A DNA stretch of 64,000 nt from Candidatus Kapaibacterium sp. (GTDB lineage: Bacteria > Patescibacteriota > Patescibacteriia > UBA9934). A program made the position numbers and the translations under genes. The notes under the pieces are model-generated. The model worked only from the letters and a program-made list of their open reading frames with translations. It made no database searches and had not been told where the DNA came from. Numbering within the stretch: the stretch's first letter is position 1; the number at the start of each line of letters is the position of its first letter. The stretch covers positions 426,676 through 490,675 of the forward strand of contig JBILHA010000001.1 of the NCBI GenBank assembly GCA_044350705.1, written 5' to 3'. Below, one piece after another: positions 5,212 to 24,380 of this stretch.

Positions 5212-7053
5212 CTATTCTTCCTTTATCGAGAGAATGACCGTTTCCCCCTCTTCGACACCACTGCGTATTTCAAGATAGCCATCATCAGCACGCATGCCTA
5301 CGGTCACCGTTCGCTTCTCAAATTCTCCCGCTTTTTCCAAAGGAATGCGTACATACTTTACGCCATCCGCTTCAAGTACGGCGCGCTGAGAAACATAGAG
5401 CGCACTCTGCGCTTCGCCGGTTACGATCGTTACGTCGGCAGACATCCCGGAACGGATTTCCTCTGCAATGTCCGTATCGGTGAGCACGACGGTTGCTTCA
5501 TAGAACACCACACCTTCAATGTTTTTTTCTGCAGGATTGATTGCGGCTACCGTCGCATGGAAAACGCGATCGTCGCCAAACGCATCGAAAGTCACGGTCG
5601 CCTTGTCGCCGGTTGCAACCTTCGCAATATCAGATTCGGAAATATCAACCGGGATCTTGAATTGTCCGGCGTCTGCCTGAATCGTCGCTACCACAACACC
5701 AGCGCCTGCCTGTTCGCCGACATCAAGGGCAAGATCGGTAAGAATACCGTTAATCGGCGAGGTAATGAGTGATTTTGCATAACGCGCTTGCGCTGCCGCA
5801 AGATCGGCGCGCAAAGAGGCGAGATCTACCGCGCGCGGCGTTGCCTGCACTTGCGCAAGTTGCGCCTTTGCTACTGCAAGATCAGCTTGTCGCGCAGCAA
5901 TACCTGCTTGCGCAATAGTAACTGCGGACTGCGCTGCGGCAATATCATTCTCTTCCGCAATCTGCGCGGCTGCAAAACTTTGCGTTGCCGCCTGAGCAGC
6001 GTTTTGCGCAGCAAGTTCTGCAGTTTCCGCAGTTACCTGTGCCAATGCATACGCCTGCTCACCATTTGCAACGCTCGCTTCATCCGTTTGTACGGCGTCA
6101 CGTGCGGCTTCAATGGTTGCTTTGTACGCATTGATATCGGCCAATGAACAAGAAACCGTGTCGGAAACGGTCATGTCCAGTACGCGCGCAACGTGAAAGA
6201 GCGTGGTACTCGTTCGTGCGAGCGCATCTTCTACCAGTAATTGTGCGGCCTCAATTTCCGCATTTGTAGAAAGCGAGGTGAGCGCGTACACCGCATCTTC
6301 AGCAACATCGCGCGCATTCGCGGCGTTATCGAATGCAAAATTCGCCGCAGATACGGTGGTAGGATCTTGGCGTCCAAGCACTGGCTCGCAGTCATTGTTT
6401 TGCAGTGCATTCTCTCGTCCAAGCACCTGATCGGCATCGGCAAGTCCGCCACGTACCGTAACCAATGCGCCTTCCAAGCTGATAATATAGTCTTCCCGTG
6501 CCTGTGCTACTTTGAGGCTATTTTCGGTTTGCGCGCGCGAAAGATCGTCTTGCGCTTTATCAGCCGCAAGTGAGGCGCTCGTTACCGATGCCGCGGCTCG
6601 CGCGGTTACGCGCATCACGTCCGCTTCTTTTATAGCCAAATCTGCCTCGGCGGATGCAAGAGCCGCTTCAGCAACCGCGACTTGGGATTCGCTCACGGCA
6701 ATCTCTTCATCGGTCGCTCCCGCAAGTCGCTGTTCAAGAAGCGCTTGCGCACGTGCAACATCGGCACCAAGTTCCCCCGCCGAAAGCGAGGCAATCACCG
6801 TTCCCGCGGCCACACGATCACCTACCGCAAAAGGCAGGGATCCAATCACCCCGGATGTGGAAAACGAAAGGTCGATATCCTGCAAGGATTCTACCTCTCC
6901 CGTGACATCGACCGTTTGGATCAGGTCTCCCCTGCGAACCGCCTCGGTCGTTACGGTGACGTTTTCATCTCCTCGAGAAAAGAGCGCAATACCTCCGATC
7001 AGGAGCGCAACCGCCCCAATTCCTCCAAGAATCCAAGATGTTTTCTTCAGCAT
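5212..7053 (-). CDS. Efflux transporter periplasmic adaptor subunit (HlyD/MacA family) with a long Ala-rich coiled coil
   Basis: 613 aa. N-terminal TM, extended coiled-coil region (AQ/AL repeats), C-terminal beta-barrel/MP domain. Heads the adaptor-ATPase-permease operon. Confidence 0.75.
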   Translation of the reverse strand: MLKKTSWILGGIGAVALLIGGIALFSRGDENVTVTTEAVRRGDLIQTVDVTGEVESLQDIDLSFSTSGVIGSLPFAVGDRVAAGTVIASLSAGELGADVARAQALLEQRLAGATDEEIAVSESQVAVAEAALASAEADLAIKEADVMRVTARAAASVTSASLAADKAQDDLSRAQTENSLKVAQAREDYIISLEGALVTVRGGLADADQVLGRENALQNNDCEPVLGRQDPTTVSAANFAFDNAANARDVAEDAVYALTSLSTNAEIEAAQLLVEDALARTSTTLFHVARVLDMTVSDTVSCSLADINAYKATIEAARDAVQTDEASVANGEQAYALAQVTAETAELAAQNAAQAATQSFAAAQIAEENDIAAAQSAVTIAQAGIAARQADLAVAKAQLAQVQATPRAVDLASLRADLAAAQARYAKSLITSPINGILTDLALDVGEQAGAGVVVATIQADAGQFKIPVDISESDIAKVATGDKATVTFDAFGDDRVFHATVAAINPAEKNIEGVVFYEATVVLTDTDIAEEIRSGMSADVTIVTGEAQSALYVSQRAVLEADGVKYVRIPLEKAGEFEKRTVTVGMRADDGYLEIRSGVEEGETVILSIKEE

Positions 7054-7092
7054 AAGGGAAAGAGTCTAGCAGAAAAGACGAAAAAAGGGAAA

Positions 7093-7842
7093 TTATTGTA
7101 TCTCCGCGCTATATTCATCTTTATCGCTCATATTCCATGAGGGAAGCGTCGCCCCTGAAATACCTCTGATTTTTTGTATCCCTCCTATTTTTTCTTCCAT
7201 ATACCACACCTCGCGCGTTCCTCCCCCATAGCGCACGGCGAGTGCATGCTCCCGAGGGGAGAAGCGGATTTCGTCCGGGCGCACGTCAAGGCCCGAGGCC
7301 CATGCCCGTCCTTCATCGGTGTGCATAAGCATGAATTCACCTTCCGCCATATAAGCAACCCACATCCCGCCTTCGCTTAAGCTGAGTATCGTTCGCTCTT
7401 CCGTGCCACCCCCTAAAATATGGGTGAGCGTTTTTGTGCAGTAATCCAACCGGTAAAGCGAGAGCGCGGGAAATGCTTCTTGCTGCTCAACGTTTGCAAC
7501 CGCAGTTACATAGGCCTCGCCGCTGTCGGTACTTGGCACATATCGGAGCTGGACCTTGGCGACCGTCAGCAAGGTCTCTCCCCCGTCACCTATGGTTACC
7601 GCTGACATGACACTCCCCGTATCGGTCCGCTCTTCCGTTATACGCACCCCTGAAATATCACTACACACTTCCTGTTCAGCACGGCGTTCATCCTGCGCGG
7701 ACTGCCAAAAAAAATTGAGCGACGTACTTGCAATGTGCGTGACGACGATCGCCCCGACAATGCCGCCTAGCACAAATCCTGCAAGTATTCCTGGGAAAAA
7801 ATGCGTCACCACTGACGGCCCATGATGCCTTCCTCCATGCAT
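7093..7842 (-). CDS. Hypothetical membrane-anchored protein
   Basis: 249 aa ORF with an N-terminal TM helix (FFPGILAGFVLGGIVGAIVV). No recognisable domain. Confidence 0.4.
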   Translation of the reverse strand: MHGGRHHGPSVVTHFFPGILAGFVLGGIVGAIVVTHIASTSLNFFWQSAQDERRAEQEVCSDISGVRITEERTDTGSVMSAVTIGDGGETLLTVAKVQLRYVPSTDSGEAYVTAVANVEQQEAFPALSLYRLDYCTKTLTHILGGGTEERTILSLSEGGMWVAYMAEGEFMLMHTDEGRAWASGLDVRPDEIRFSPREHALAVRYGGGTREVWYMEEKIGGIQKIRGISGATLPSWNMSDKDEYSAEIQ

Positions 7843-8421
7843 ATAGCAGAAGTATACCCTACCTCATTGGCCTTGCCCCTTTTTGTCCATGCACCTATGC
7901 TGCGGTGCGTATGCCCTTCGTTCCCGCTACCACGCTCGTTTTTCTCGTTCGAGAAAAAGAGGGGAAAAAAGGAAGTCTGCCTCGCGCTCAAAAAGCGCGG
8001 TTTTGGCGTAGGGAAATGGAATGGCGTGGGAGGAAAGGTGGAGTCAGGCGAATCCCCTGCTCAGGCAGCACTCCGAGAAACACAAGAAGAAATCGATGTT
8101 GTCGTTCATCTTCCTTGTAAAATCGCCGAACTCACCTTCACCTTCTCTCATCAACCTGCCTGGGATCAAGTGGTCCATGTTTTTGTTTGCAAACAATGGA
8201 AAGGCGAACCGCAAGAAACTGAAGAGATGCGACCGCAATGGTTTTCTCTTGATACTCTCCCATGGGATGACATGTGGCCTGATGATCGTTTTTGGCTTCC
8301 CCTCGTTCTTGAAGGCAACCTTGTCCAAGGAAGTTTTGTCTTTGGGAAGGAGCATGAAATCCTCACGCAGGAGGTACGCACCGTGGATTATCTTTTCTCT
8401 CCCCACGCTTTCCGTCTTTAG
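7822..8421 (+). CDS. NUDIX hydrolase (MutT/MTH1-like); true start is probably an internal Met near 7897
   Basis: Nudix box GKWNGVGGKVESGESPAQAALRETQEEIDV (GX5EX7REUXEEXGU). Confidence 0.75.
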   Translation: MMPSSMHIAEVYPTSLALPLFVHAPMLRCVCPSFPLPRSFFSFEKKRGKKEVCLALKKRGFGVGKWNGVGGKVESGESPAQAALRETQEEIDVVVHLPCKIAELTFTFSHQPAWDQVVHVFVCKQWKGEPQETEEMRPQWFSLDTLPWDDMWPDDRFWLPLVLEGNLVQGSFVFGKEHEILTQEVRTVDYLFSPHAFRL

Positions 8422-15168: not shown

Positions 15169-18100
15169 TTATCCTCCCAATTCGCTGCGTTTCATCATGT
15201 CGTTTTGTGGCTCTGTCACATCGCCTGCATCATCAATCACTTCTCCTTGGCCGAGATTCATGAAGATGCTTTCAACGATATCGAGCACGTATTCTCCCCA
15301 TGACGCTCCATAGATCACGCGCGCAACGGATTCTGACGCAATCCACCGGAGACGCACGATGCCGTCTCGATTCTCCAAGGCATATACTTCAGGCTGGGTT
15401 TGCAATTTCACGAGTACCGTTCCTGCCTTTGGCGGTACCAACGTTCCTTCTGGGTATGCGGCGAGCAAGCCATCAGCTACGACTTGTACATCGTCAAATG
15501 ACGAAAGATACGTGAAGAAAATTTGCTCATTGAGGAACGGGCGCTTCGTACCAAGCGTATCAAGATAGAACACCCCTCGTTCGGACTGTTCGCGCACAAT
15601 CATGCCCGGCTCCAGCTCGGCTCGTGTCGTGATCACGTCATCGCTCTTCTTTTCTACCATTTCTTCTATCGCCTGTTCCTGATCACCTTCTTCGTCTTGC
15701 TGCTCATCCTCTCCTTCACCTTCCTCTGCGCCATCTTGCACTTCCTGTTCGTCATTTTCCGTTGCAATACTCAGCGCTTCGGAAAGATCGCTCGCGAGAA
15801 CGCTGGCCAGGTCGGTCGCTTCCGCCTTAATGATGACCGCGTCTGCCTGTTCTTCAGGCGCACTCCAGCGATATTCACCGTCGTTTGGCGTATTTTGCGC
15901 AATCGTTTTCCAGAAGGTTCCCGCGTCTATGCTGTAAGAAAGCGTCACAAAACCTGGCGTTGTCGTGCTGCCTTGCGTGGTCCAGGTAATCGGAATGATT
16001 TCTCCCGCGGTGAATGATCCTCCCAGAGGCGCGGTAATGCTCATGGCATAGACTTGCGGCGTTTGCGTTCCCCCTCCGCTGTCATCACCTCCCGTTATTA
16101 CCGTTCCCGCTACAGCCGTTGCTTCATCGTGGAGCACATCAGCCGCCGTGGTCGTTTGAATGGCGTAAGTTCCGGTGGTTCCCCGCGTGGTGGGATTGGT
16201 GATCCCTGAAACCGTACACACCTGTGCTCCCGGTACCTCAGATGATCCGCCGCTTCGCGTCAGGGTGACGGTTTGTCCGCTCACACTGGTTGCAAATGCA
16301 CCATCCATGGTGGAACACGTGCCGCTTGTTGCTCCGGATACCGTGAATCCGGAAGGGAATGTTACTTTGATTTTTCCATTGTTCGCGATGCTGTTTTGCG
16401 TGGTAAACGCGATCGTGACGAGCGTGCTTACCCGGGGACGCACCAGTGACGGCGTTACCGCAGGAGAGGTCAGCGTTGCCGCAACAAGGGTATCGGCGCT
16501 CACGGCAAGTTCGCTGTCGATCATGCTGTCTGCGCTGGTAAACGTTGCCAAGGAATACGTTCCTGTCGTTCCCGCAGTGGAAGGATTTTTAATGCCGCTC
16601 ACCGTACAGGTTTCCGCGCTTCCTCCCGCCTGCAACGACCCGTCGTTTTGACGTGTAATCGTTACCCGTTGTCCGGAGATACTCGTCACAAACGTACCGT
16701 CCATCGATGAACAGGTTCCGCCCGTTGCACCCGTGATGTCGAATCCTGCAGGAAATTCTATGGCGATTTTTCCGTTTGCAGGAATGGCGTTTTGTGTGGT
16801 GAATGATGCGGTCACCGCGCCCGTTGCTCCTGCCGCAAGCGATGCTGGCTGCACGTTGGTACTTGCGAGTGCACCCGTTGCACTCGTGATGGTATCTGCC
16901 GATACCGCACTATCATTATCGATCGTCTGACTTGCTCCCGTGAGCGTTGTGATTGTGTATGTTCCGGTCGATCCTGCACTTCCCGGGTTGGTGATGCTGT
17001 TGATGGTACACGTTTGCGGACCCGGCGCCTCAGGACTTCCTGCGCCATTTCTTGTAATGGTAACCTCTTGTCCGCTCACCGACGTGGTAAACCCTCCATC
17101 CATGGATGAACAGGTTGCGCCGGATGCTCCGGAAACGTTAAATCCTGCTGGAAATGTTACGCGGACGCGGCCGTTATTAGGCAAGCTGTTGATGGTGGTA
17201 AACGTTACCGTCACGGTTCCGTTTGCGCTTGCGACAAGCGACGTAGGTTCAACGTTCGTGCTCGTGAGCGTTGACGCGACAATCGTGTCTGCGGTAACCC
17301 CTGTATCGGTGTCGATGACACTATCGGTACTCGTCAGCGTTGCCAACGAATAGGTGCCGGTCGAGCTAGCGGTAGTTGGATTTTGAATGCCGCTCACCGT
17401 ACAGGTTTCCGCGCTTCCTCCCGCCTGCAACGACCCGTCGTTTTGACGTGTAATCGTTACCCGTTGTCCGGAGATACTCGTGACAAACGTACCGTCCATC
17501 GATGAACAGGTTCCGCCTGTTGCACCGGTAACCACGAAGCCGGAAGGAAATTGTACGGCGATTTTTCCGTTTGCGGGAATGTTATTCGTTGTGGTAAACG
17601 ACAAGGTGACCACGCTTGTTGCTCCCGTATTCAATGAGGCCGGCTGCACGTTGGTGCTCGTGAGTGTTGGCGTTGCGGCGGTGATCGTATCAGCCGATAC
17701 CGTCGCGGTATCAATGAGCTGTCCCGAGCTATTTGTTGATTGTAAGGAATATGTTCCGGTCGATCCCGCGCTTCCTGGGTTGGTAATACCGTTCATGGTA
17801 CACGTTTGCGCGCCTGCCGGTTCACTTGTTCCGGCACTATTTCTTGCAATAGTAACTTCCTGTCCGGTCACCGATGTGGTAAATCCTCCATCCATGGATG
17901 AACAGGTACCGCCCGATGCGCCGGAAACGTTAAATCCTCCTGGGAATGTCACGCGGATACGGCCGTTGTTTGGAATAGCGTTCACCGTGGTAAACGTTAC
18001 GGTCACCGTATTGGTCGTTCCTGCGACGAGCGATGCCGGCTCGACGTTGGTACTCGTCATGAGTGCCGCAACAATACTGTCTGCGGCTACCGAGGGATCG

Positions 18101-18564
18101 ATGTCGATCTGGACATCAGCGGCGTTCGTCGTTTCAATGGTGTACGTTCCGGCCGAACCTGCAACCGCCGGGTTTTGAATGCCGTTGATCGTACACGTTT
18201 CGCTTCCGCTACTTTGCGAGGTTCCATCGTTTTGACGGGTGAGCGTCACCGTTTGGCCGGAAACGCTCGTCACAAACGTCCCATCCATGGTTGCGCACGT
18301 TCCGCCCGATGCGCCGGAAACGTTAAATCCGGAAGGATAGGTGACCTTAATCTTTCCATCAGCAGGAATCGCGCCCACCGTAGTAAAAGAAATGGTGTTC
18401 TGACTCGTTCTTCCTGTTTCCATGTTCATAGGCTGGACGTTGGTTGACGTCAGCCCCGCGCCCTTCACGACTGCAGCAATGCTGAGTGAGCCTGCAAGAA
18501 TGAAGGCGCTCAGGACGAGCAGAGATTTTCCGTATTTTTTCGGGGTGTGGAGTGTGCGTTTCAT
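15169..18564 (-). CDS. Large tandem-repeat cell-surface protein (about 8 repeats of ~100 aa) with an acidic C-terminal domain
   Basis: Signal peptide MKRTLHTPKKYGKSLLVLSAFILAGSLSIAAVV (the ORF track extends to 18672 but the likely start is 18564). Repeat unit: LTSTNV(E/Q)PASL..TVTFTT.N.IP.NG(K/R)I.V.FP.GF.V.GA.GGTC..MDG.F.TS.SGQ.VTI.R. Confidence 0.75.
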   Translation of the reverse strand: MKRTLHTPKKYGKSLLVLSAFILAGSLSIAAVVKGAGLTSTNVQPMNMETGRTSQNTISFTTVGAIPADGKIKVTYPSGFNVSGASGGTCATMDGTFVTSVSGQTVTLTRQNDGTSQSSGSETCTINGIQNPAVAGSAGTYTIETTNAADVQIDIDPSVAADSIVAALMTSTNVEPASLVAGTTNTVTVTFTTVNAIPNNGRIRVTFPGGFNVSGASGGTCSSMDGGFTTSVTGQEVTIARNSAGTSEPAGAQTCTMNGITNPGSAGSTGTYSLQSTNSSGQLIDTATVSADTITAATPTLTSTNVQPASLNTGATSVVTLSFTTTNNIPANGKIAVQFPSGFVVTGATGGTCSSMDGTFVTSISGQRVTITRQNDGSLQAGGSAETCTVSGIQNPTTASSTGTYSLATLTSTDSVIDTDTGVTADTIVASTLTSTNVEPTSLVASANGTVTVTFTTINSLPNNGRVRVTFPAGFNVSGASGATCSSMDGGFTTSVSGQEVTITRNGAGSPEAPGPQTCTINSITNPGSAGSTGTYTITTLTGASQTIDNDSAVSADTITSATGALASTNVQPASLAAGATGAVTASFTTQNAIPANGKIAIEFPAGFDITGATGGTCSSMDGTFVTSISGQRVTITRQNDGSLQAGGSAETCTVSGIKNPSTAGTTGTYSLATFTSADSMIDSELAVSADTLVAATLTSPAVTPSLVRPRVSTLVTIAFTTQNSIANNGKIKVTFPSGFTVSGATSGTCSTMDGAFATSVSGQTVTLTRSGGSSEVPGAQVCTVSGITNPTTRGTTGTYAIQTTTAADVLHDEATAVAGTVITGGDDSGGGTQTPQVYAMSITAPLGGSFTAGEIIPITWTTQGSTTTPGFVTLSYSIDAGTFWKTIAQNTPNDGEYRWSAPEEQADAVIIKAEATDLASVLASDLSEALSIATENDEQEVQDGAEEGEGEDEQQDEEGDQEQAIEEMVEKKSDDVITTRAELEPGMIVREQSERGVFYLDTLGTKRPFLNEQIFFTYLSSFDDVQVVADGLLAAYPEGTLVPPKAGTVLVKLQTQPEVYALENRDGIVRLRWIASESVARVIYGASWGEYVLDIVESIFMNLGQGEVIDDAGDVTEPQNDMMKRSELGG
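15900..18400. repeat. Intragenic tandem repeats of ~300 bp, including a ~150-bp near-identical pair at about 16590-16740 and 17385-17535
   Basis: Direct reading shows ...accgtacaggtttccgcgcttcctcccgcctgcaacgacccgtcgttttgacgtgtaatcgttacccgttgtccggagatactcgt... at both loci. Confidence 0.7.
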
Positions 18565-18641
18565 AAAGTTTTTTCTACCGGAAAAGCATACCATTTTTAT
18601 TGCCTCGCTTTTTTCTCCACTGTGAACAGTCCTCCCCTCTT

Positions 18642-19160
18642 TCATTGCCATACCCTGAGCTCTCTTCGGCATTCGCGGTACTCCGGGATGGTTTGCGCCA
18701 CGAGCGCCCAGAACCTTGGTGAGTGATTGAATTCCTTAAGATGGCAGAGCTCGTGAACGATGAGGTATTCGGCAAGGTGCGGGGGGAGAAACAGAATGCG
18801 GTAGTTGAAATTGAGATTGCCACGCTTTGAGCAACTGCCCCAGCGGGTTTGTTGATTGCGAACCGAGATCTTTCCGTAGGAGAATCCGTAGTGCTGATTT
18901 AGCTCGGCTACTCGTTGCGTCGTGAAATGAAGTGAGGAGTGTTTGACGTCTTGGTAAGACGGATATGAACGGACGGGACGGATATGTGGAAGCTTCGCTC
19001 TCGCCTTCTCAATCCATTCCTTTTTCTCCTCCACAAACTTTTCTGCCCATTTCATAGGTACACGAAAAGGGACGGTCACCATGCAGGTGCCGTCGCCTTT
19101 GATGCGAATGCGCAGATACTTTGCATTTCGCTTTTTCGTGAATACGATCCCTTCCTCCAT
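18642..19160 (-). CDS. YgjP-like (DUF45) M48-family zinc metallohydrolase
   Basis: HELCHL zinc-binding motif in IVHELCHLKEFNHSPRFWALV. 172 aa, typical of the family. Confidence 0.75.
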   Translation of the reverse strand: MEEGIVFTKKRNAKYLRIRIKGDGTCMVTVPFRVPMKWAEKFVEEKKEWIEKARAKLPHIRPVRSYPSYQDVKHSSLHFTTQRVAELNQHYGFSYGKISVRNQQTRWGSCSKRGNLNFNYRILFLPPHLAEYLIVHELCHLKEFNHSPRFWALVAQTIPEYRECRRELRVWQ

Positions 19161-20714: not shown

Positions 20715-21341
20715 CTAGGTCTCGATGAAATTTATCTCATCTTCGTATATGACGATCTTCTCAATTCCATCATTCCCAATTTTAACAATCTCATTTTTTA
20801 ATATTTTTCCATTCAAAAGATATCTACACCGTGCATTATTAACTTCATTTATTTCTTCGTGAGGATTTGATACTAAAAATATCCCTCTTGTAAGCTTTTT
20901 TGAGGCCTCCAGAAGCTTCCCAACTTCATCTTCTAAAAGATTTGTATTTTTATGAAAAACAATAATTAAACCATATGCATTTGTTTGTACTTTTTTCTTG
21001 TTTAAAATTTCTTTCAAAAATTCACTGAAAGTATTTTTATCTTTTTCATGAAATTCTTTAACGTCAAAAACAATACCTCTCATTCCATTAGAATCTCCGC
21101 ACGCAAAGATTACATCCCCTCTTTCTTCCTCAGGAAAGAAGAGTAAATGAGAGCATCCCTCAATGTCGTCAAAAAGTCTGCAGGCAAATAAGGAAAAATA
21201 TGCCTCTCTTATTTTTAAATATTTATGATTATTTAAAAAAATATCTTTATGCTTCTCTTTTGAATAAATCTCATGAAATATATTAAAAACACTGGATTGC
21301 GGAATGAGCCTTTTAACAGGAATGTCTCTATCTTGATTCAT
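20715..21341 (-). CDS. Hypothetical protein (208 aa) translationally coupled to the nuclease-helicase gene in the AT-rich island
   Basis: Its start overlaps the stop of the upstream helicase ORF by 14 nt. Very AT-rich codon usage. No recognisable motif. Confidence 0.5.
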
Positions 21342-23202
21342 GATTCATTGTTTTGATTTTTATTCTTTTTCTCACATACTCCTTTACGTTTTCATCCACA
21401 AAATACACATAACACCCCTTCATTCCACGTGACATGAGGACTTTGTAAATATTTCTCACAAGCTGGTTCATACGCTCGGGATTGTTTTTTAATCCCTTCT
21501 TTCCATTCGCATCTTTGTACTCATTCCATTTTGTAAAATACTCCATTTTTTCAGCATCAAACTGGAGGTCTTTCCCCACAATAACTCCCACATAATCGAA
21601 CTCAAGACCTTGCGATGTATGCACACATCCTGCTTGGTCAATACCGTCTCCATCAATTGCCCACGTCGTACCGATGCGACGAGAATTCCACGGCATACTG
21701 AAATCGTACTCTGGAATAACAATATCGTGATGATTTGCATCGGGATTTCCCGCATTTGCGGCCGTCCATTTCCATGCATATCCTGCAAGAACACGCGCAC
21801 TTTTACCTGCCGTTTGCTTCTTTTTTATCTCTGCAACTAATTCTTTCGGATCATCAAAGATGCGGAAATCAAATTTTTCCCTATCCCATCCGTCGTAGTT
21901 TGCAGTCTCGCGAATATGAAGTGTGTTATCAAGCCAATTCAAATATCCTTGAGCACCAGCGCAACGAAATTGCGCCTGTAACTCCACTTCAAATACTTCA
22001 GCACCCTCTTGTTTTACTACTCGCTTTATCTCCTCCACCGATCCCACATCATCCGGACGAATTACCTGATTATCATCAACGAAAAATATACTCACCTTTG
22101 CCGCGCGAACTATATCTTCCACCTGATTTTCTCCCTGATACATATAGGCTCCTGCTTTCTTCAAGCGATGAGCTTCATCTACGATCACTACATCAAATGC
22201 ATTCGCTTCTGTATCCACAAAACTTCCTGAACCTCTAAAAAGTGACTGGATGCGGTTCTTTGCATGCTCTTGTGCAAGTTTGTGCATGAGAACTGTTCTA
22301 AATGAAGCATTCGGCGCTACAAAAACTGCATTTTTTTCTTCTTTTAATAATCCCCCGAGAAGATTTACCGAAACGACCGATTTTCCCGTTCCCGGTCCGC
22401 CCTTAATAAGTACTACGGACTTTGATACATGCTTTAGCGCAACATGCTTTGCGGTCTCATATGCAATCTTTTGCTCATCCAAAAGCACAAACTCTTGATT
22501 TCCTTCAAGCATTCCTGAAACATGGTCAATAAGTTTTTTACTTGGACGAATACGACCATATTCAACTTCGTATAGAATATCGTCTCCGTTTCCCTTTCCT
22601 ACATACTTTTTCAAAAACTTCTCCAACTTCTCCTGATCATCCTTAAGATAGAGCGGTGCAAGATCTGTATGCTCTTTATATATCTCTGCTTCTAATGGTT
22701 CCGGATTTTGTCTTATGTAATTGTGAAGATAGGCGCACGCATGTGCATTAAGTTGCTTTGTTTCAATATTTTCATTGTAGTCTTCGAGATACATCTGATA
22801 TGAGCTCGCCTGATATGAAGGGTGTGTTGTTTCGCGTACAGCACCTCCGAGAAATGTTTTTACCAAACCATCCTTTTCGGTCGCCTCAGCTTTATCCCAT
22901 TGTTTAAGCTCAACAATGACGAAGTGTCTATTTCCTTCGTCATCATGTCCTGCTATAAAAAAATCGATGCGATTTGAAGTCGCAGGAATGACGTATTCAA
23001 TTAAAATGCCACATGTAGGATTAAGATCTGCACGCCGGACAATACGCTCCATATACTGCAAAGAGTTTGTCATTGCACGTTTTTCCGAAGGTGAAACCCT
23101 TCGCCCCAATCCATCTTCGAATGCCTTTTCTACAACATCGGCAATAATATTTCTATCAACGTATTCACGAAATTCTTCAAGCGTACTGCGATATAAAAAC
23201 AT
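21328..23202 (-). CDS. PD-(D/E)xK nuclease domain fused to a DUF2075-type SF1 helicase/ATPase (Nhi/Schlafen-like architecture)
   Basis: N-terminus GILIEYVIP...RIDFFIAGHDDEGNRHFVIVELKQW gives an E...D...ExK motif set. Walker A GGPGTGKS, Walker B VVIVDEAHRL, SF1 motif VI-like CVHTSQGLEFDYVGVIVG, and DUF2075-like AGYAWKW. Confidence 0.8.
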   Translation of the reverse strand: MFLYRSTLEEFREYVDRNIIADVVEKAFEDGLGRRVSPSEKRAMTNSLQYMERIVRRADLNPTCGILIEYVIPATSNRIDFFIAGHDDEGNRHFVIVELKQWDKAEATEKDGLVKTFLGGAVRETTHPSYQASSYQMYLEDYNENIETKQLNAHACAYLHNYIRQNPEPLEAEIYKEHTDLAPLYLKDDQEKLEKFLKKYVGKGNGDDILYEVEYGRIRPSKKLIDHVSGMLEGNQEFVLLDEQKIAYETAKHVALKHVSKSVVLIKGGPGTGKSVVSVNLLGGLLKEEKNAVFVAPNASFRTVLMHKLAQEHAKNRIQSLFRGSGSFVDTEANAFDVVIVDEAHRLKKAGAYMYQGENQVEDIVRAAKVSIFFVDDNQVIRPDDVGSVEEIKRVVKQEGAEVFEVELQAQFRCAGAQGYLNWLDNTLHIRETANYDGWDREKFDFRIFDDPKELVAEIKKKQTAGKSARVLAGYAWKWTAANAGNPDANHHDIVIPEYDFSMPWNSRRIGTTWAIDGDGIDQAGCVHTSQGLEFDYVGVIVGKDLQFDAEKMEYFTKWNEYKDANGKKGLKNNPERMNQLVRNIYKVLMSRGMKGCYVYFVDENVKEYVRKRIKIKTMNHESR

Positions 23203-23205
23203 ATT

Positions 23206-23571
23206 CTAAAGATCAGTATATTTCGTATGCACTCCTTTCGCTTTTTCTACAGGGTATTTCTCTTCATTCTTCCGCATCTTTTCTTCTAGTGCCGTAAAGA
23301 CATCAATATCAAAATCATGCGCCATAAGTAAAATCCAATAAAGCGTATCTGCGAGTTCCTCCCCCACCGCCTTCTTTTTATCCTCACGTTCAAGATACAT
23401 TTTCATTTCTTCTGCATTCTTCCACTGAAAATGTTCCATGACTTCAGTAGCTTCAAGTACTAAAGAGACCGCGAGGTCTTTTGGGTTATGAAATTGTTTC
23501 CAGTCGCGAGCATTGCGGAAGGCGATAATGCGCTGAGTCAAAGAATTAATATCCATCATATCTAGCTGCAA
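23206..23571 (-). CDS. MazG-like nucleoside-triphosphate pyrophosphohydrolase (all-alpha NTP-PPase)
   Basis: 121 aa. EELADTLYWILLMAHDFDIDV and LVLEATEVMEHFQW are typical MazG-domain helices. Its stop is 3 nt from the helicase start. Confidence 0.75.
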   Translation of the reverse strand: MQLDMMDINSLTQRIIAFRNARDWKQFHNPKDLAVSLVLEATEVMEHFQWKNAEEMKMYLEREDKKKAVGEELADTLYWILLMAHDFDIDVFTALEEKMRKNEEKYPVEKAKGVHTKYTDL

Positions 23572-23821
23572 TGGCGATACTTGTATTTTTTATAGCTTCC
23601 ATTGCAGTATTTTTTTTACCTATCTTTCAAAAAAACTTATAAGTTTTTCTCATTTATTTTGAGAATACCTTTCAGTCATATACTCGTCAATCGAGGTGGG
23701 CAATTAAAAATACCCTCGATTCGTACCATCAATATTTTTCAAAAAGGCTGTGAGACCCTTCCTTACGTCAGGGTCTTTCTTTACATCAGAGTCTTTTTTC
23801 TGCACATGATTGGAGCATACA

Positions 23822-23856
23822 AAAAACTCCAGGATTATTCCCGGAGTTTTTTTTAA
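23822..23856. terminator. Bidirectional rho-independent terminator (ctccagg-attatt-cccggag with A-run and T-run)
   Basis: Lies downstream of the HEPN-like gene on the minus strand. Separates it from the mazG-helicase operon promoter region. Confidence 0.55.
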
Positions 23857-23918
23857 CTCGTCTTTATTTTTAACTTTCTATATTTCTCTACTAACCTTCT
23901 TTGATCTTCGGCAGATTT

Positions 23919-24380
23919 TTATTTTGAAATCCCTGCATCAATCGCTATCTTTTTTCTTAAATTATTTAATACAATTCTCAATTCTTTCATTTTTTCCAAC
24001 GTAAGAATCATACTAAATTCAACCTCAAGATCTCTATTCTTCTGTGTTTTAAATTTTACCAACTGCATCATGCCATCTCCATCTATTTCTGCCATAATTC
24101 CATGTGCAAATGCATGTCTTAATTGCTTAAACTCCTCTGGAATTTTTATTTTTGGAAATTTGTCATTGAATTCTTCTATTATTTCTTCGAGCCGAATGAT
24201 AGAAAAGGCTTTTGGATAAACTTTATATACTTTTCCTTTCGCATAAGGGGGCTTGGGAAATTTCGATTCTTCCCCATCTTTTTTCGCAATTGCACACCTC
24301 ATAATGAATTCTATCGCGGCGATATCCCTTACTACCTCCCCCAGGCATTCAAAAAATTCTGAGATATCTTTTTTTTGCAT
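23919..24380 (-). CDS. Hypothetical protein with a HEPN-like Rx4H motif (LRHAFAHG)
   Basis: 153 aa. AT-rich. Immediately downstream of cysS. R-x4-H within a predicted helical region. Confidence 0.45.
   Translation of the reverse strand: MQKKDISEFFECLGEVVRDIAAIEFIMRCAIAKKDGEESKFPKPPYAKGKVYKVYPKAFSIIRLEEIIEEFNDKFPKIKIPEEFKQLRHAFAHGIMAEIDGDGMMQLVKFKTQKNRDLEVEFSMILTLEKMKELRIVLNNLRKKIAIDAGISK

What the first reader, a model, noticed from the sequence alone, without database searches (positions are those of the whole stretch)
21328..23571. Candidate undescribed defense module: MazG-like NTP pyrophosphohydrolase translationally coupled to a PD-(D/E)xK nuclease-DUF2075 SF1 helicase
Two minus-strand genes are separated by only 3 nt (23206/23202). 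The first is a 121-aa MazG-type all-alpha NTP pyrophosphatase. The second is a 624-aa fusion of an N-terminal restriction-endonuclease-like PD-(D/E)xK domain (E...D...ExK in EYVIP / RIDFF / VIVELKQW) with a DUF2075/SF1B helicase core (GGPGTGKS, VVIVDEAHRL, VHTSQGLEFDYVGVIVG). This nuclease-helicase architecture is that of Nhi/Schlafen-like antiviral proteins. I do not know of a fixed MazG partner in a described system. A host-encoded nucleotide pyrophosphatase coupled to a nuclease-helicase suggests nucleotide-pool sensing or depletion acting with nucleic-acid degradation. The genes sit in a strongly AT-rich accessory island with their own promoter region (23572-23820).
Basis: partly seen in the sequence, partly recalled or inferred. 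Interest (0 to 1): 0.85.

Follow-up and report, generated by a model that had tools for sequence, protein, structure and literature searches.

The report
MazG pyrophosphatase plus nuclease-helicase pair
A small nucleotide-cleaning enzyme and a large DNA-cutting, DNA-unwinding enzyme form a two-gene cassette that moves between very different microbes and sits among anti-virus genes. It was listed as a defence candidate in 2022, and the one construct tested gave no protection, so its function is still open.

Summary
A MazG-like (DCTPP1-type) pyrophosphatase gene (23206-23559, minus strand) ends 3 nt before a 624-aa gene (21328-23202). That gene fuses a RecB-type PD-(D/E)xK nuclease to an SF1B DUF2075/SLFN-g3 helicase, and all catalytic motifs are invariant. 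The pairing recurs. In 78 evaluable loci from many bacterial phyla and archaea, MazG lies directly next to the helicase gene in 48 and within 5 kb in 54. The two proteins co-vary (Mantel r=0.51, 0 of 2000 permutations). Neighbours are heterogeneous defence genes. Here the pair sits in a 37% GC island in a 50% GC window.

"Undescribed" is only partly right. Millman et al. 2022 (Table S2) list this pair as the candidate system "Pyrophosphatase". SG192 (45% and 43% identical to these proteins) showed no defence against the paper's 26-phage panel, and cloning of SG193 failed. The large protein is only a distant relative (21% identity) of the validated Nhi-like protein.

My best reading is a mobile, Nhi-like nuclease-helicase defence effector with a dNTP-pool-sanitising partner, possibly aimed at phages with modified cytosine. 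The mechanism is inferred, not shown. I class it as a new variant of a known kind, of moderate interest.

The parts
23206..23559 (-). MazG-like (DCTPP1-type) all-alpha dNTP pyrophosphohydrolase, 117 aa. The ORF can be extended to a TTG at 23571, giving 121 aa.
   Evidence: PF12643 E=1.2e-17. PDB 4qgp E=2e-18 and mouse/human DCTPP1 E=2e-17. Acidic motifs E36/E39/E42 and E68/D71 are 93-100% conserved in 55 helicase-linked homologues. Homologues are 115-117 aa and the gene call is 117 aa.
22498..23202 (-). N-terminal domain (residues 1-235) of the 624-aa protein: RecB-type PD-(D/E)xK nuclease with E69, D80, E98-x-K100 and Q131-x3-Y135.
21328..22497 (-). C-terminal SF1B helicase core (DUF2075 / SLFN-g3_helicase), residues 236-624 plus the stop codon.
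   Evidence: PF09848 E=3e-96. Walker A, DEAH and later motifs are invariant. Foldseek top hits are SLFN11, RecD, Dna2, IGHMBP2, RecD2, Dda and Upf1.
23203..23205 (-). 3-nt spacer (AAT) between the MazG stop codon TAG and the helicase ATG; consistent with translational coupling.
   Evidence: Sequence read. In homologous loci the gap ranges from -28 to +99 nt, and nine loci have a 4-nt overlap.
23560..23820 (-). Intergenic leader upstream of MazG; presumed promoter region, including a TTGACG-17-TATTCT match at 23690-23662.
   Evidence: Consensus matches in the region are not above chance, so this is presumed only.
23821..23852 (-). Strong A/U-flanked hairpin: an intrinsic-terminator-like element ending the upstream gene and isolating the MazG-helicase transcription unit.
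   Evidence: Free energy -19 kcal/mol, z=-6.7, 0 of 200 shuffles as stable.
20715..21341 (-). 208-aa orphan ORF overlapping the helicase gene's 3' end by 14 nt. It is island cargo, not a conserved part of the module.
   Evidence: No Pfam match. Only itself found among 5.8 billion proteins. Absent from 80 homologous loci. 29.8% GC.
23919..24380 (-). 153-aa minimal HEPN-like protein (invariant R88-x4-H93). It is a neighbouring island gene, separately terminated.
   Evidence: Family of 44 representatives. R88 and H93 are the only invariant residues. Members give weak hits to several HEPN Pfam families.

Best explanation
The locus carries a horizontally mobile two-gene module of the nuclease-helicase defence class. 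Shown: a DCTPP1-type MazG pyrophosphatase gene is co-inherited with, and probably translationally coupled to, a gene for a RecB-type PD-(D/E)xK nuclease fused to an SF1B (DUF2075/Schlafen-type) helicase. Both proteins have intact active sites. The pair lies in variable defence-island contexts. Inferred: the large protein is the effector. Like Dna2, AddAB, RecBCD and Nhi, it would load on DNA ends or replication intermediates of an invader and unwind and degrade them using ATP. Inferred, and the most speculative step: the MazG partner hydrolyses non-canonical dCTP derivatives such as 5-methyl- or 5-hydroxymethyl-dCTP. This would deny modified precursors to phages that replace cytosine. It would also stop modified nucleotides released by the nuclease from being salvaged into host DNA, which would otherwise make host DNA a target. 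In a subset of homologues a C-terminal LexA/UmuD-type S24 domain suggests activation by RecA-ssDNA.
For: Pairing: MazG is directly adjacent in 48 of 78 evaluable loci and within 5 kb on the same strand in 54 of 78. These span Patescibacteria, Proteobacteria, Bacillota, Bacteroidota, Chloroflexota, Spirochaetes and three archaeal groups. It is also adjacent in all 6 additional loci examined. Co-variation between the two proteins: Mantel r=0.51, 0 of 2000 permutations. Active sites are intact. Fold evidence: SF1B helicase and restriction-endonuclease fold. Mobility: 37% GC island in a 50% GC window; 109 plasmid records; 55-60% identity between phyla. Defence context: immediate neighbours include HamB, PD-Lambda-1, type IV methyl-directed restriction enzymes, MkoC, GajB, type I restriction enzymes and several PDC candidates. 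HEPN_AbiU2 or DUF4145 genes are inserted between the two genes in some loci. The Priestia plasmid locus carries MutT, MrcB_N-HNH, a type I R-M system and an ABC-three-component protein. Millman et al. drew their candidates from gene clusters enriched in defence islands (defence score >=0.4), and this pair is one of those candidates. Modified-cytosine theme: MazG is closest to DCTPP1, which acts in 5-methyl-dCTP metabolism (PMC4491611). Recurrent partners are a PLD-SF2 helicase-DUF3427 protein (10 loci) and a NUDIX_4 hydrolase (7 loci). DUF3427 fusion proteins restrict T4gt and were noted next to DUF2075 genes (PMC6765204). Mrr_cat, MrcB_N-HNH or C5-methylase genes are adjacent in L082, L084 and L003. 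The distantly related Nhi-like protein is escaped by loss of a phage DNA methylase.
Against: The only direct test reported found no defence. SG192 from Bacillus firmus, with its native promoter, is marked x for 'observed defense'; the paper's panel was 26 phages in E. coli and B. subtilis. 24 of 78 loci have no MazG within 5 kb, so the partner is not obligatory. The substrate specificity of this MazG is unknown; similarity to DCTPP1 does not prove a preference for modified dCTP. The large protein contains no recognisable modified-base reader domain. The family is unusually conserved for a defence gene (about 60% identity across phyla). No interaction between the two proteins has been shown. 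The defence-context evidence is qualitative: I ran no matched control set of neighbourhoods.
Confidence: 0.45

Rival explanations
1. Nucleotide-depletion defence. MazG is the main effector and hydrolyses canonical dNTPs (for example dCTP) during infection to starve phage replication, as dCTP deaminase and dGTPase defences do. The nuclease-helicase acts as a sensor or second effector. This is.
For: MazG is a dNTP pyrophosphatase homologue with intact metal-binding residues. Nucleotide-depleting defence enzymes are known (mentioned). The pair is co-inherited.
Against: The 117-aa protein has no regulatory or sensor domain, so unregulated depletion of canonical dNTPs would be toxic. Its closest characterised relatives are house-cleaning enzymes. 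One third of helicase homologues lack it. SG192 gave no defence.
Confidence: 0.15
2. Toxin-antitoxin-like or abortive-infection arrangement. The nuclease-helicase is toxic, and the upstream, translationally coupled MazG restrains it, either directly or by destroying an activating nucleotide.
For: The gene order is small gene first with a 3-nt gap or 4-nt overlap. Cloning of SG193 failed. HEPN and Abi genes are embedded in or next to the pair.
Against: 24 of 78 helicase genes stand without MazG. In 6 loci the order is reversed. MazG keeps a complete catalytic site, which a mere protein antitoxin would not need. A failed cloning has many possible causes.
Confidence: 0.1
3. DNA-damage or repair function rather than immunity. 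A Dna2/AddAB-like end-processing enzyme and a pool sanitiser together keep non-canonical nucleotides out of DNA, under SOS control.
For: The architecture is Dna2/RecB-like. A C-terminal LexA/UmuD-type S24 domain is present in 11 of 78 homologues, all of which have MazG (Fisher p=0.015). In L082, lexA and a Y-family polymerase gene lie nearby. Sequence conservation is very high. No defence was seen for SG192.
Against: Distribution is patchy and plasmid-borne. The composition here is foreign. Neighbours are heterogeneous and defence-rich rather than a conserved repair operon. Apart from a small clade-specific synteny, the pair has no fixed genomic position.
Confidence: 0.15
4. The adjacency is a chance or local peculiarity with no functional link.
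For: None beyond the fact that some homologues lack MazG.
Against: There are 48 directly adjacent pairs in 78 loci across domains of life. Strand and order are conserved, the genes overlap, and the proteins co-vary.
Confidence: 0.01

Closest known systems
Millman et al. 2022 candidate system 'Pyrophosphatase' (constructs SG192 Bacillus firmus LK28 and SG193 B. thuringiensis Lr3/2; Table S2 of bioRxiv 10.1101/2022.05.11.491447)
   Same: The same two genes in the same order: a pyrophosphatase followed by a DUF2075 protein. The SG192 DUF2075 protein is 45% identical over residues 1-397 (E=1e-118), and its pyrophosphatase is 43% identical (E=2e-27).
   Different: That was a candidate, not a verified system. 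'Observed defense' is marked x for SG192 and 'Cloning failed' for SG193. It has no name, no mechanism and no discussion in the text. The window's copy appears to come from a Patescibacteria-like genome and is far more AT-rich than its surroundings.
Nhi-like (Millman 2022, SG141, Bacillus cereus FSL H8-0482), a validated single-gene defence
   Same: An N-terminal PD-(D/E)xK nuclease (EY...RxD...IExK, QxxxY) followed by a DUF2075 SF1 helicase. The alignment is collinear through the nuclease motifs and Walker A and B.
   Different: Only 21% identity (E=2e-7). The validated construct contains only the one gene in Table S2. Phages escape it by losing a DNA methylase; nothing comparable is known for this family.
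Nhi (S. epidermidis SERP2475; Bari et al.) and lactococcal AbiO
   Same: Nuclease-helicase architecture with a DUF2075-type SF1B helicase. The PADLOC Nhi and AbiO models hit the helicase core at E about 1e-15.
   Different: The match covers only residues 236-414, not the whole protein. Nhi acts alone, and phages escape it through mutations in core replication proteins. Nhi has no MazG partner.
DCTPP1 / RS21-C6 (mammalian dCTP pyrophosphatase 1) and archaeal 4qgp pyrophosphatase
   Same: An all-alpha MazG-like fold family. E=2e-17 to 2e-18, with conserved ExxExxE and ExxD motifs and the RDW..FH.P and FQW motifs.
   Different: DCTPP1 is a stand-alone housekeeping enzyme in eukaryotes. Here the gene is fixed next to a nuclease-helicase on mobile DNA. 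Substrate preference has not been measured.
Dna2, AddAB/RecBCD (RecB-family nuclease plus SF1 helicase) and the human SLFN11 helicase domain
   Same: A RecB-type nuclease motif set combined with an SF1B helicase. Foldseek top hits are SLFN11, RecD, Dna2 and RecD2.
   Different: Sequence identity is only 12-15% and TM-scores are about 0.3. Schlafen's N-terminal RNase domain is replaced here by a PD-(D/E)xK nuclease. No Chi-recognition or Fe-S elements were identified.
DUF3427 fusion proteins (McaZI group; Lutz et al. 2019, PMC6765204)
   Same: They occur in defence islands and restrict T4gt, and the authors reported DUF2075 NTPase genes next to some of them. Here a PLD-SF2 helicase-DUF3427 protein with a NUDIX_4 partner recurs beside the MazG-helicase pair.
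   Different: These are different proteins: a co-occurring neighbour module, not a homologue of either gene in the finding.

Membership tests
Pfam PF09848 (DUF2075 / SLFN-g3_helicase) | Profile match above the gathering score over the helicase core | tested here: met
   323.2 bits against a cut-off of 24; residues 261-603 match profile positions 1-354 of 354.
SF1B helicase | Walker A, Walker B (DExx), motif VI arginine and an SF1B-like fold | tested here: met
   GGPGTGKS, VDEAH and R592 are invariant. Foldseek hits are RecD, RecD2, Dda, Dna2, Upf1, IGHMBP2 and SLFN11 at probability 1.0. Unwinding polarity cannot be tested here.
RecB-type PD-(D/E)xK nuclease | E/D ... D ... ExK catalytic triad plus the QxxxY motif on a restriction-endonuclease fold | tested here: met
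Pfam PF12643 MazG-like / DCTPP1 family | Profile match plus the metal-binding ExxE...ExxD acidic residues | tested here: met
   64.4 bits against a cut-off of 27. DCTPP1 E=2e-17. E36, E39, E42, E68 and D71 are 93-100% conserved.
DCTPP1 family | Preference for dCTP and 5-modified dCTP | not testable with these tools
   This needs enzyme assays. Only homology is available.
Millman 2022 candidate 'Pyrophosphatase' (SG192) | Pyrophosphatase gene directly upstream of an orthologous DUF2075 nuclease-helicase gene | tested here: met
   45% identity (E=1e-118) and 43% identity (E=2e-27), with the same gene order.
Nhi (S. epidermidis) / AbiO as modelled in PADLOC | Full-length match to the Nhi or AbiO HMM | tested here: not met
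   Only residues 236-414 match, against model positions about 175-329 of about 470, at E about 1e-15. The nuclease domain and the second helicase lobe are not covered.
Nhi-like (Millman SG141) | Close sequence relationship to the validated protein | tested here: not met
   21% identity, E=2e-7, over the first 346 residues. The architecture is shared but the family differs. Only the first 399 residues of SG141 were available.
Anti-phage defence system (functional class) | Experimentally observed protection against phage | not testable with these tools
   The only published test of an orthologous pair reported no defence (SG192 = x); cloning of SG193 failed.
Anti-phage defence system (functional class) | Enrichment next to known defence genes and on mobile DNA | tested here: inconclusive
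   Many strong PADLOC hits occur among 137 immediate neighbours (HamB 6e-220, mREase_IV 9e-167, PD-Lambda-1 2e-170 and others). There is plasmid carriage, and Millman et al. drew their candidates from defence-island-enriched clusters. I ran no matched background control.
Type II toxin-antitoxin pair | Toxicity of the large gene that is neutralised by the small upstream gene | not tested
   Only the gene order and the failed cloning of SG193 hint at this.

The most novel reading that the evidence does not exclude
MazG-DUF2075 here, and the NUDIX-DUF3427 helicase pair that often sits beside it, may represent a general design not yet described. In this design a dNTP-pool-sanitising pyrophosphatase is coupled to a nuclease-helicase. 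The cell would destroy DNA of phages with modified bases, withhold their modified precursors, and prevent salvaged modified nucleotides from entering and marking its own genome. This would be a prokaryotic counterpart of DCTPP1's role in animals. In some lineages the system would be switched on through a RecA-cleavable S24 domain.
Probability: 0.2. Interest if true: 0.75.

Novelty: new variant of a known kind. Interest (0 to 1): 0.5.

Why it matters
Nuclease-helicase proteins with a Schlafen-type helicase (Nhi, Nhi-like, AbiO) are established antiviral effectors. This family is widespread and strongly conserved, with at least 7,995 clusters matching at E<=1e-10 (the search scored only 8,000 candidates). 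It differs in having a fixed nucleotide-pyrophosphatase partner that is homologous to human DCTPP1.

If the pair is a defence system, it would link nucleotide-pool hygiene to DNA degradation. It could also explain how cells avoid poisoning their own genome with modified nucleotides released from degraded phage DNA. That would also suggest an ancestral immune context for DCTPP1 and for Schlafen-type helicases.

The pair occurs in genome-reduced Patescibacteria, in archaea and on plasmids, so it is a candidate for a compact, portable immune module. The single negative test in 2022 makes it a clear open question. It needs the right challenge, such as phages with modified bases, plasmids, or native hosts.

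Tried and rejected
- **Named defence system.** PADLOC and NCBIfam gave no full-length match, only partial helicase-core hits to PDC-S41, AbiO and Nhi.
- **Literature.** No paper holds both 'DUF2075' and 'MazG'. 'MazG' with 'defense island' led to DefensePredictor, whose MazG system (MazG plus a MazG-C kinase) is a different thing. The bacterial Schlafen papers concern the Slfn RNase domain, not this helicase family. 'COG3410' gave nothing relevant.
- **Solved structures by sequence.** The large protein matches only generic P-loop proteins.
- **Third gene.** The 208-aa ORF has no Pfam match and no homologue, so I dropped it from the module. Neither flanking ORF occurs in the 80 related loci.
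- **Phage origin.** Only 4 of 50,697 phage records carry the large gene, so I rejected the idea that it is a typical phage gene.
- **S24 fusion position.** I first assumed the Peptidase_S24 fusion was N-terminal. The sequences show it is C-terminal.
- **Promoter scan.** Not informative: fewer matches than in shuffled sequence.
- **Not attempted.** I did not identify the source organism (cluster look-up gave no name). I did not model a complex of the two proteins, because no tool offers it.
Full report
**1.

On the minus strand there is a 624-aa ORF (21328-23202) and, upstream, a small ORF ending at 23206. The junction reads TAG-AAT-ATG, a 3-nt spacer. The small ORF can start at a TTG (23571, 121 aa). 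Homologues are 115-117 aa and an independent gene call gives 117 aa, so the ATG at 23559 is the likely start.

Pfam assigns the small protein to MazG-like (PF12643, E=1.2e-17). It assigns residues 261-603 of the large protein to SLFN-g3_helicase, formerly DUF2075 (PF09848, E=3e-96).

In an alignment of 25 homologues the following are invariant:
- the nuclease residues E69, D80 and E98-x-K100;
- a Q131-x3-Y135 motif, which I recognise from my own knowledge as the RecB-family signature;
- Walker A (GGPGTGKS), Walker B (VDEAH) and the later helicase motifs.

The small protein matches an archaeal pyrophosphatase (4qgp, E=2e-18) and mammalian dCTP pyrophosphatase 1 (E=2e-17). Its ExxExxE and ExxD acidic motifs are 93-100% conserved among 55 helicase-linked homologues.

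The stretch 20715-24380 is 37.2% GC in a 50.1% GC window.

**2. The pairing is a conserved, mobile module**

A scan of one genome per species returned at least 591 loci encoding a relative of the large protein. I examined the best 80. They come from Saccharibacteria, Parcubacteria, Omnitrophica, Gamma-, Beta-, Zeta- and Alphaproteobacteria, Desulfovibrio, Bacillota, Bacteroidota, Chloroflexota, Spirochaetes, Mycoplasmatota and three archaeal lineages.

Of 78 loci where the upstream side is present:
- 42 have a MazG-like gene directly upstream on the same strand, with gaps of -28 to +99 nt and nine 4-nt overlaps;
- 6 have it directly downstream;
- 6 have it upstream with one or more other genes between;
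- 24 have none within 5 kb.

All six further loci I looked at also have it directly upstream. These are three close relatives, a Priestia plasmid, a Halalkalicoccus plasmid and a Microcystis phage record.

Pairwise identities of the two proteins co-vary: Mantel r=0.51, with 0 of 2000 permutations reaching it. Clustering of all neighbours shows that MazG is the only broadly shared neighbour.

The large gene occurs on 109 plasmid records but on only 4 of 50,697 phage records.

**3. Context**

Immediate neighbours are very heterogeneous and include strong matches to known defence proteins: HamB, PD-Lambda-1, type IV methyl-directed restriction enzymes, MkoC, GajB, type I restriction enzymes, PbeA and several PADLOC candidates. 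They also include Fic, DUF2726, HTH_3 and integrases.

In some Bacilli genomes a HEPN_AbiU2 or DUF4145 gene is inserted between MazG and the helicase gene.

The Priestia plasmid locus reads: ABC-three-component protein, MBL hydrolase, restriction endonuclease, MutT, MrcB_N-HNH, MazG, DUF2075, then a type I R-M system.

In this window the pair is flanked by two genes:
- Upstream is a 153-aa protein of a small family whose only invariant residues form an R-x4-H HEPN motif. It is separately terminated by a strong hairpin.
- Downstream is a 208-aa orphan ORF.

In three close relatives (70-80% identical helicase) the pair again lies 0.7-3 kb upstream of a YgjP-like gene, with different genes in between. 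This looks like a clade-specific variable hotspot.

I did not run a matched control for defence enrichment, so this evidence is qualitative.

**4. What is already known**

No paper in the library mentions both DUF2075 and MazG. However, Table S2 of Millman et al. 2022 lists a candidate system called 'Pyrophosphatase':
- SG192 (Bacillus firmus LK28): a 98-aa pyrophosphatase plus a 643-aa DUF2075 protein, with 'observed defense' marked x.
- SG193 (B. thuringiensis): the same two gene types in reverse order, marked 'Cloning failed'.

The SG192 proteins are 45% (E=1e-118) and 43% (E=2e-27) identical to those here. The SG193 helicase is more distant, at 23%.

The paper drew its candidates from clusters enriched in defence islands and tested them with 26 phages. 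The authors state that unverified candidates may still be defensive under other conditions.

The same paper validated a single-gene 'Nhi-like' protein with the same architecture. It aligns collinearly with this protein, but at only 21% identity. Phages escape Nhi-like by losing a DNA methylase.

PADLOC's Nhi and AbiO models cover only part of the helicase core. The module is therefore a previously flagged but unverified and uncharacterised relative of a known class.

**5. How it most likely works**

Shown: the pair is a co-inherited, probably translationally coupled, mobile pair of intact enzymes.

Inferred from the families: the large protein is a Dna2/RecB/Nhi-style ATP-driven nuclease-helicase that degrades DNA.

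For the MazG partner I favour sanitation of the nucleotide pool over bulk depletion, for three reasons:
- It is a minimal DCTPP1-type house-cleaning enzyme without a regulatory domain.
- Recurrent companions point to modified cytosine. A NUDIX_4 hydrolase paired with a PLD-SF2 helicase-DUF3427 protein forms four-gene operons with the pair, for example in L030, L048 and L067. DUF3427 fusion proteins restrict T4gt (hmC DNA) and were already noted next to DUF2075 genes.
- Mrr_cat, MrcB_N-HNH and C5-methylase genes are adjacent in other loci.

This is inference. The substrate is unmeasured, the large protein has no visible modified-base reader, a third of homologues lack MazG, and the only functional test was negative.

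The rivals are nucleotide depletion, a toxin-antitoxin-like arrangement, and an SOS-linked repair role. The repair idea draws on a C-terminal LexA/UmuD-type S24 domain with a conserved A/C-G site and a GxSM motif. It is found in 11 of 78 homologues, all with MazG (Fisher p=0.015).

**6. Verdict**

It is a new variant of a known kind, namely Nhi-like nuclease-helicases with a fixed DCTPP1-type partner. Interest is moderate. The module is widespread and conserved and offers a testable link between nucleotide hygiene and DNA-targeting immunity. Against that, a leading group has already listed it as a candidate and tested one construct without seeing defence.

Noticed in passing
window 23919-24380 (-): A 153-aa protein directly upstream of the pair belongs to a small family (44 representatives). 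Its only invariant residues are R88 and H93, within the consensus LRNAxAHG, a HEPN R-x4-H motif. Family members give weak hits to several HEPN Pfam families. It is probably a minimal HEPN RNase and part of the same AT-rich island (33% GC).
   Followed up: partly
window 20715-21341 (-): A 208-aa ORF overlaps the helicase stop by 14 nt. It is 29.8% GC, has no Pfam match and has no homologue other than itself in 5.8 billion proteins. It is either an orphan gene riding in the operon or a spurious ORF.
   Followed up: partly
L003, L005, L007, L033, L035, L041, L047, L051, L053, L061, L080; proteins P0044, P0063, P0065, P0111: About 14% of helicase homologues carry a C-terminal extension of roughly 140-200 aa of the LexA/UmuD Peptidase_S24 type. 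It has a conserved A/C-G cleavage-like site and a GxSM serine motif. All 11 such loci also have MazG. This suggests RecA-ssDNA-triggered self-cleavage as a switch.
   Followed up: partly
L030 1136-6962; L048 1502-6878; L067 892-6878; L021, L043, L031, L026: A recurrent four-gene arrangement combines two pairs: MazG with the DUF2075 nuclease-helicase, and a NUDIX_4 hydrolase with a PLDc_2-ResIII/Helicase_C-DUF3427 protein of about 930 aa. Each pair is a pyrophosphatase plus a nuclease-helicase, and the genes are often separated by only a few nucleotides.
   Followed up: partly
L034 4426-4992, L073 4353-4997, L067 4388-4996, L056 4137-4991: In some Bacilli metagenome-assembled genomes a variable gene is inserted between MazG and the helicase gene. 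It is HEPN_AbiU2, DUF4145 or an unknown 284-aa protein. The junction appears to tolerate, or attract, small Abi-type cargo.
   Followed up: partly
window 18642-19160 (-); L082 12821-13342; L083 4229-4762; L087 3859-4401: In the window and three related genomes the pair always lies 0.7-3 kb upstream of a YgjP-like (PF01863) metallopeptidase gene, with different genes in between. YgjP-like is absent from the 80 more distant loci. The helicase (70-80% identity) is more conserved than YgjP-like (54-58%).
   Followed up: partly
L082 3740-7591: In the closest long contig, a membrane-associated Mrr_cat restriction-type protein sits directly upstream of MazG. A lexA gene, a small gene and a Y-family polymerase (IMS) gene lie next to it. 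Downstream there is an HTH_3 / Peptidase_M78 (ImmA-like) pair.
   Followed up: no
L085 (Microcystis phage Mwe-JY31, PP438423.1) 5648-7863: A 22-kb record deposited as a phage genome carries the MazG-helicase pair (45% and 41% identity) next to a TPR protein. All its genes are annotated as hypothetical. It may be a defence-carrying element rather than a typical phage.
   Followed up: no
window 15169-18672 (-): A 1167-aa protein is built of many near-identical repeats of about 95 aa (for example '...TSTNVQPAS...FTT.N.IP.NGKI...FP.GF.V.GA.GGTCS.MDG.F.TS.SGQ.VT..R...'), followed by an acidic linker. It looks like a surface or S-layer-type repeat protein.
   Followed up: no
window 23821-23852 (-): A perfect 14-bp hairpin is flanked by an A-run and a U-run (-19 kcal/mol, z -6.7). 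It would work as a terminator in both directions. The simple terminator scan did not list it.
   Followed up: yes
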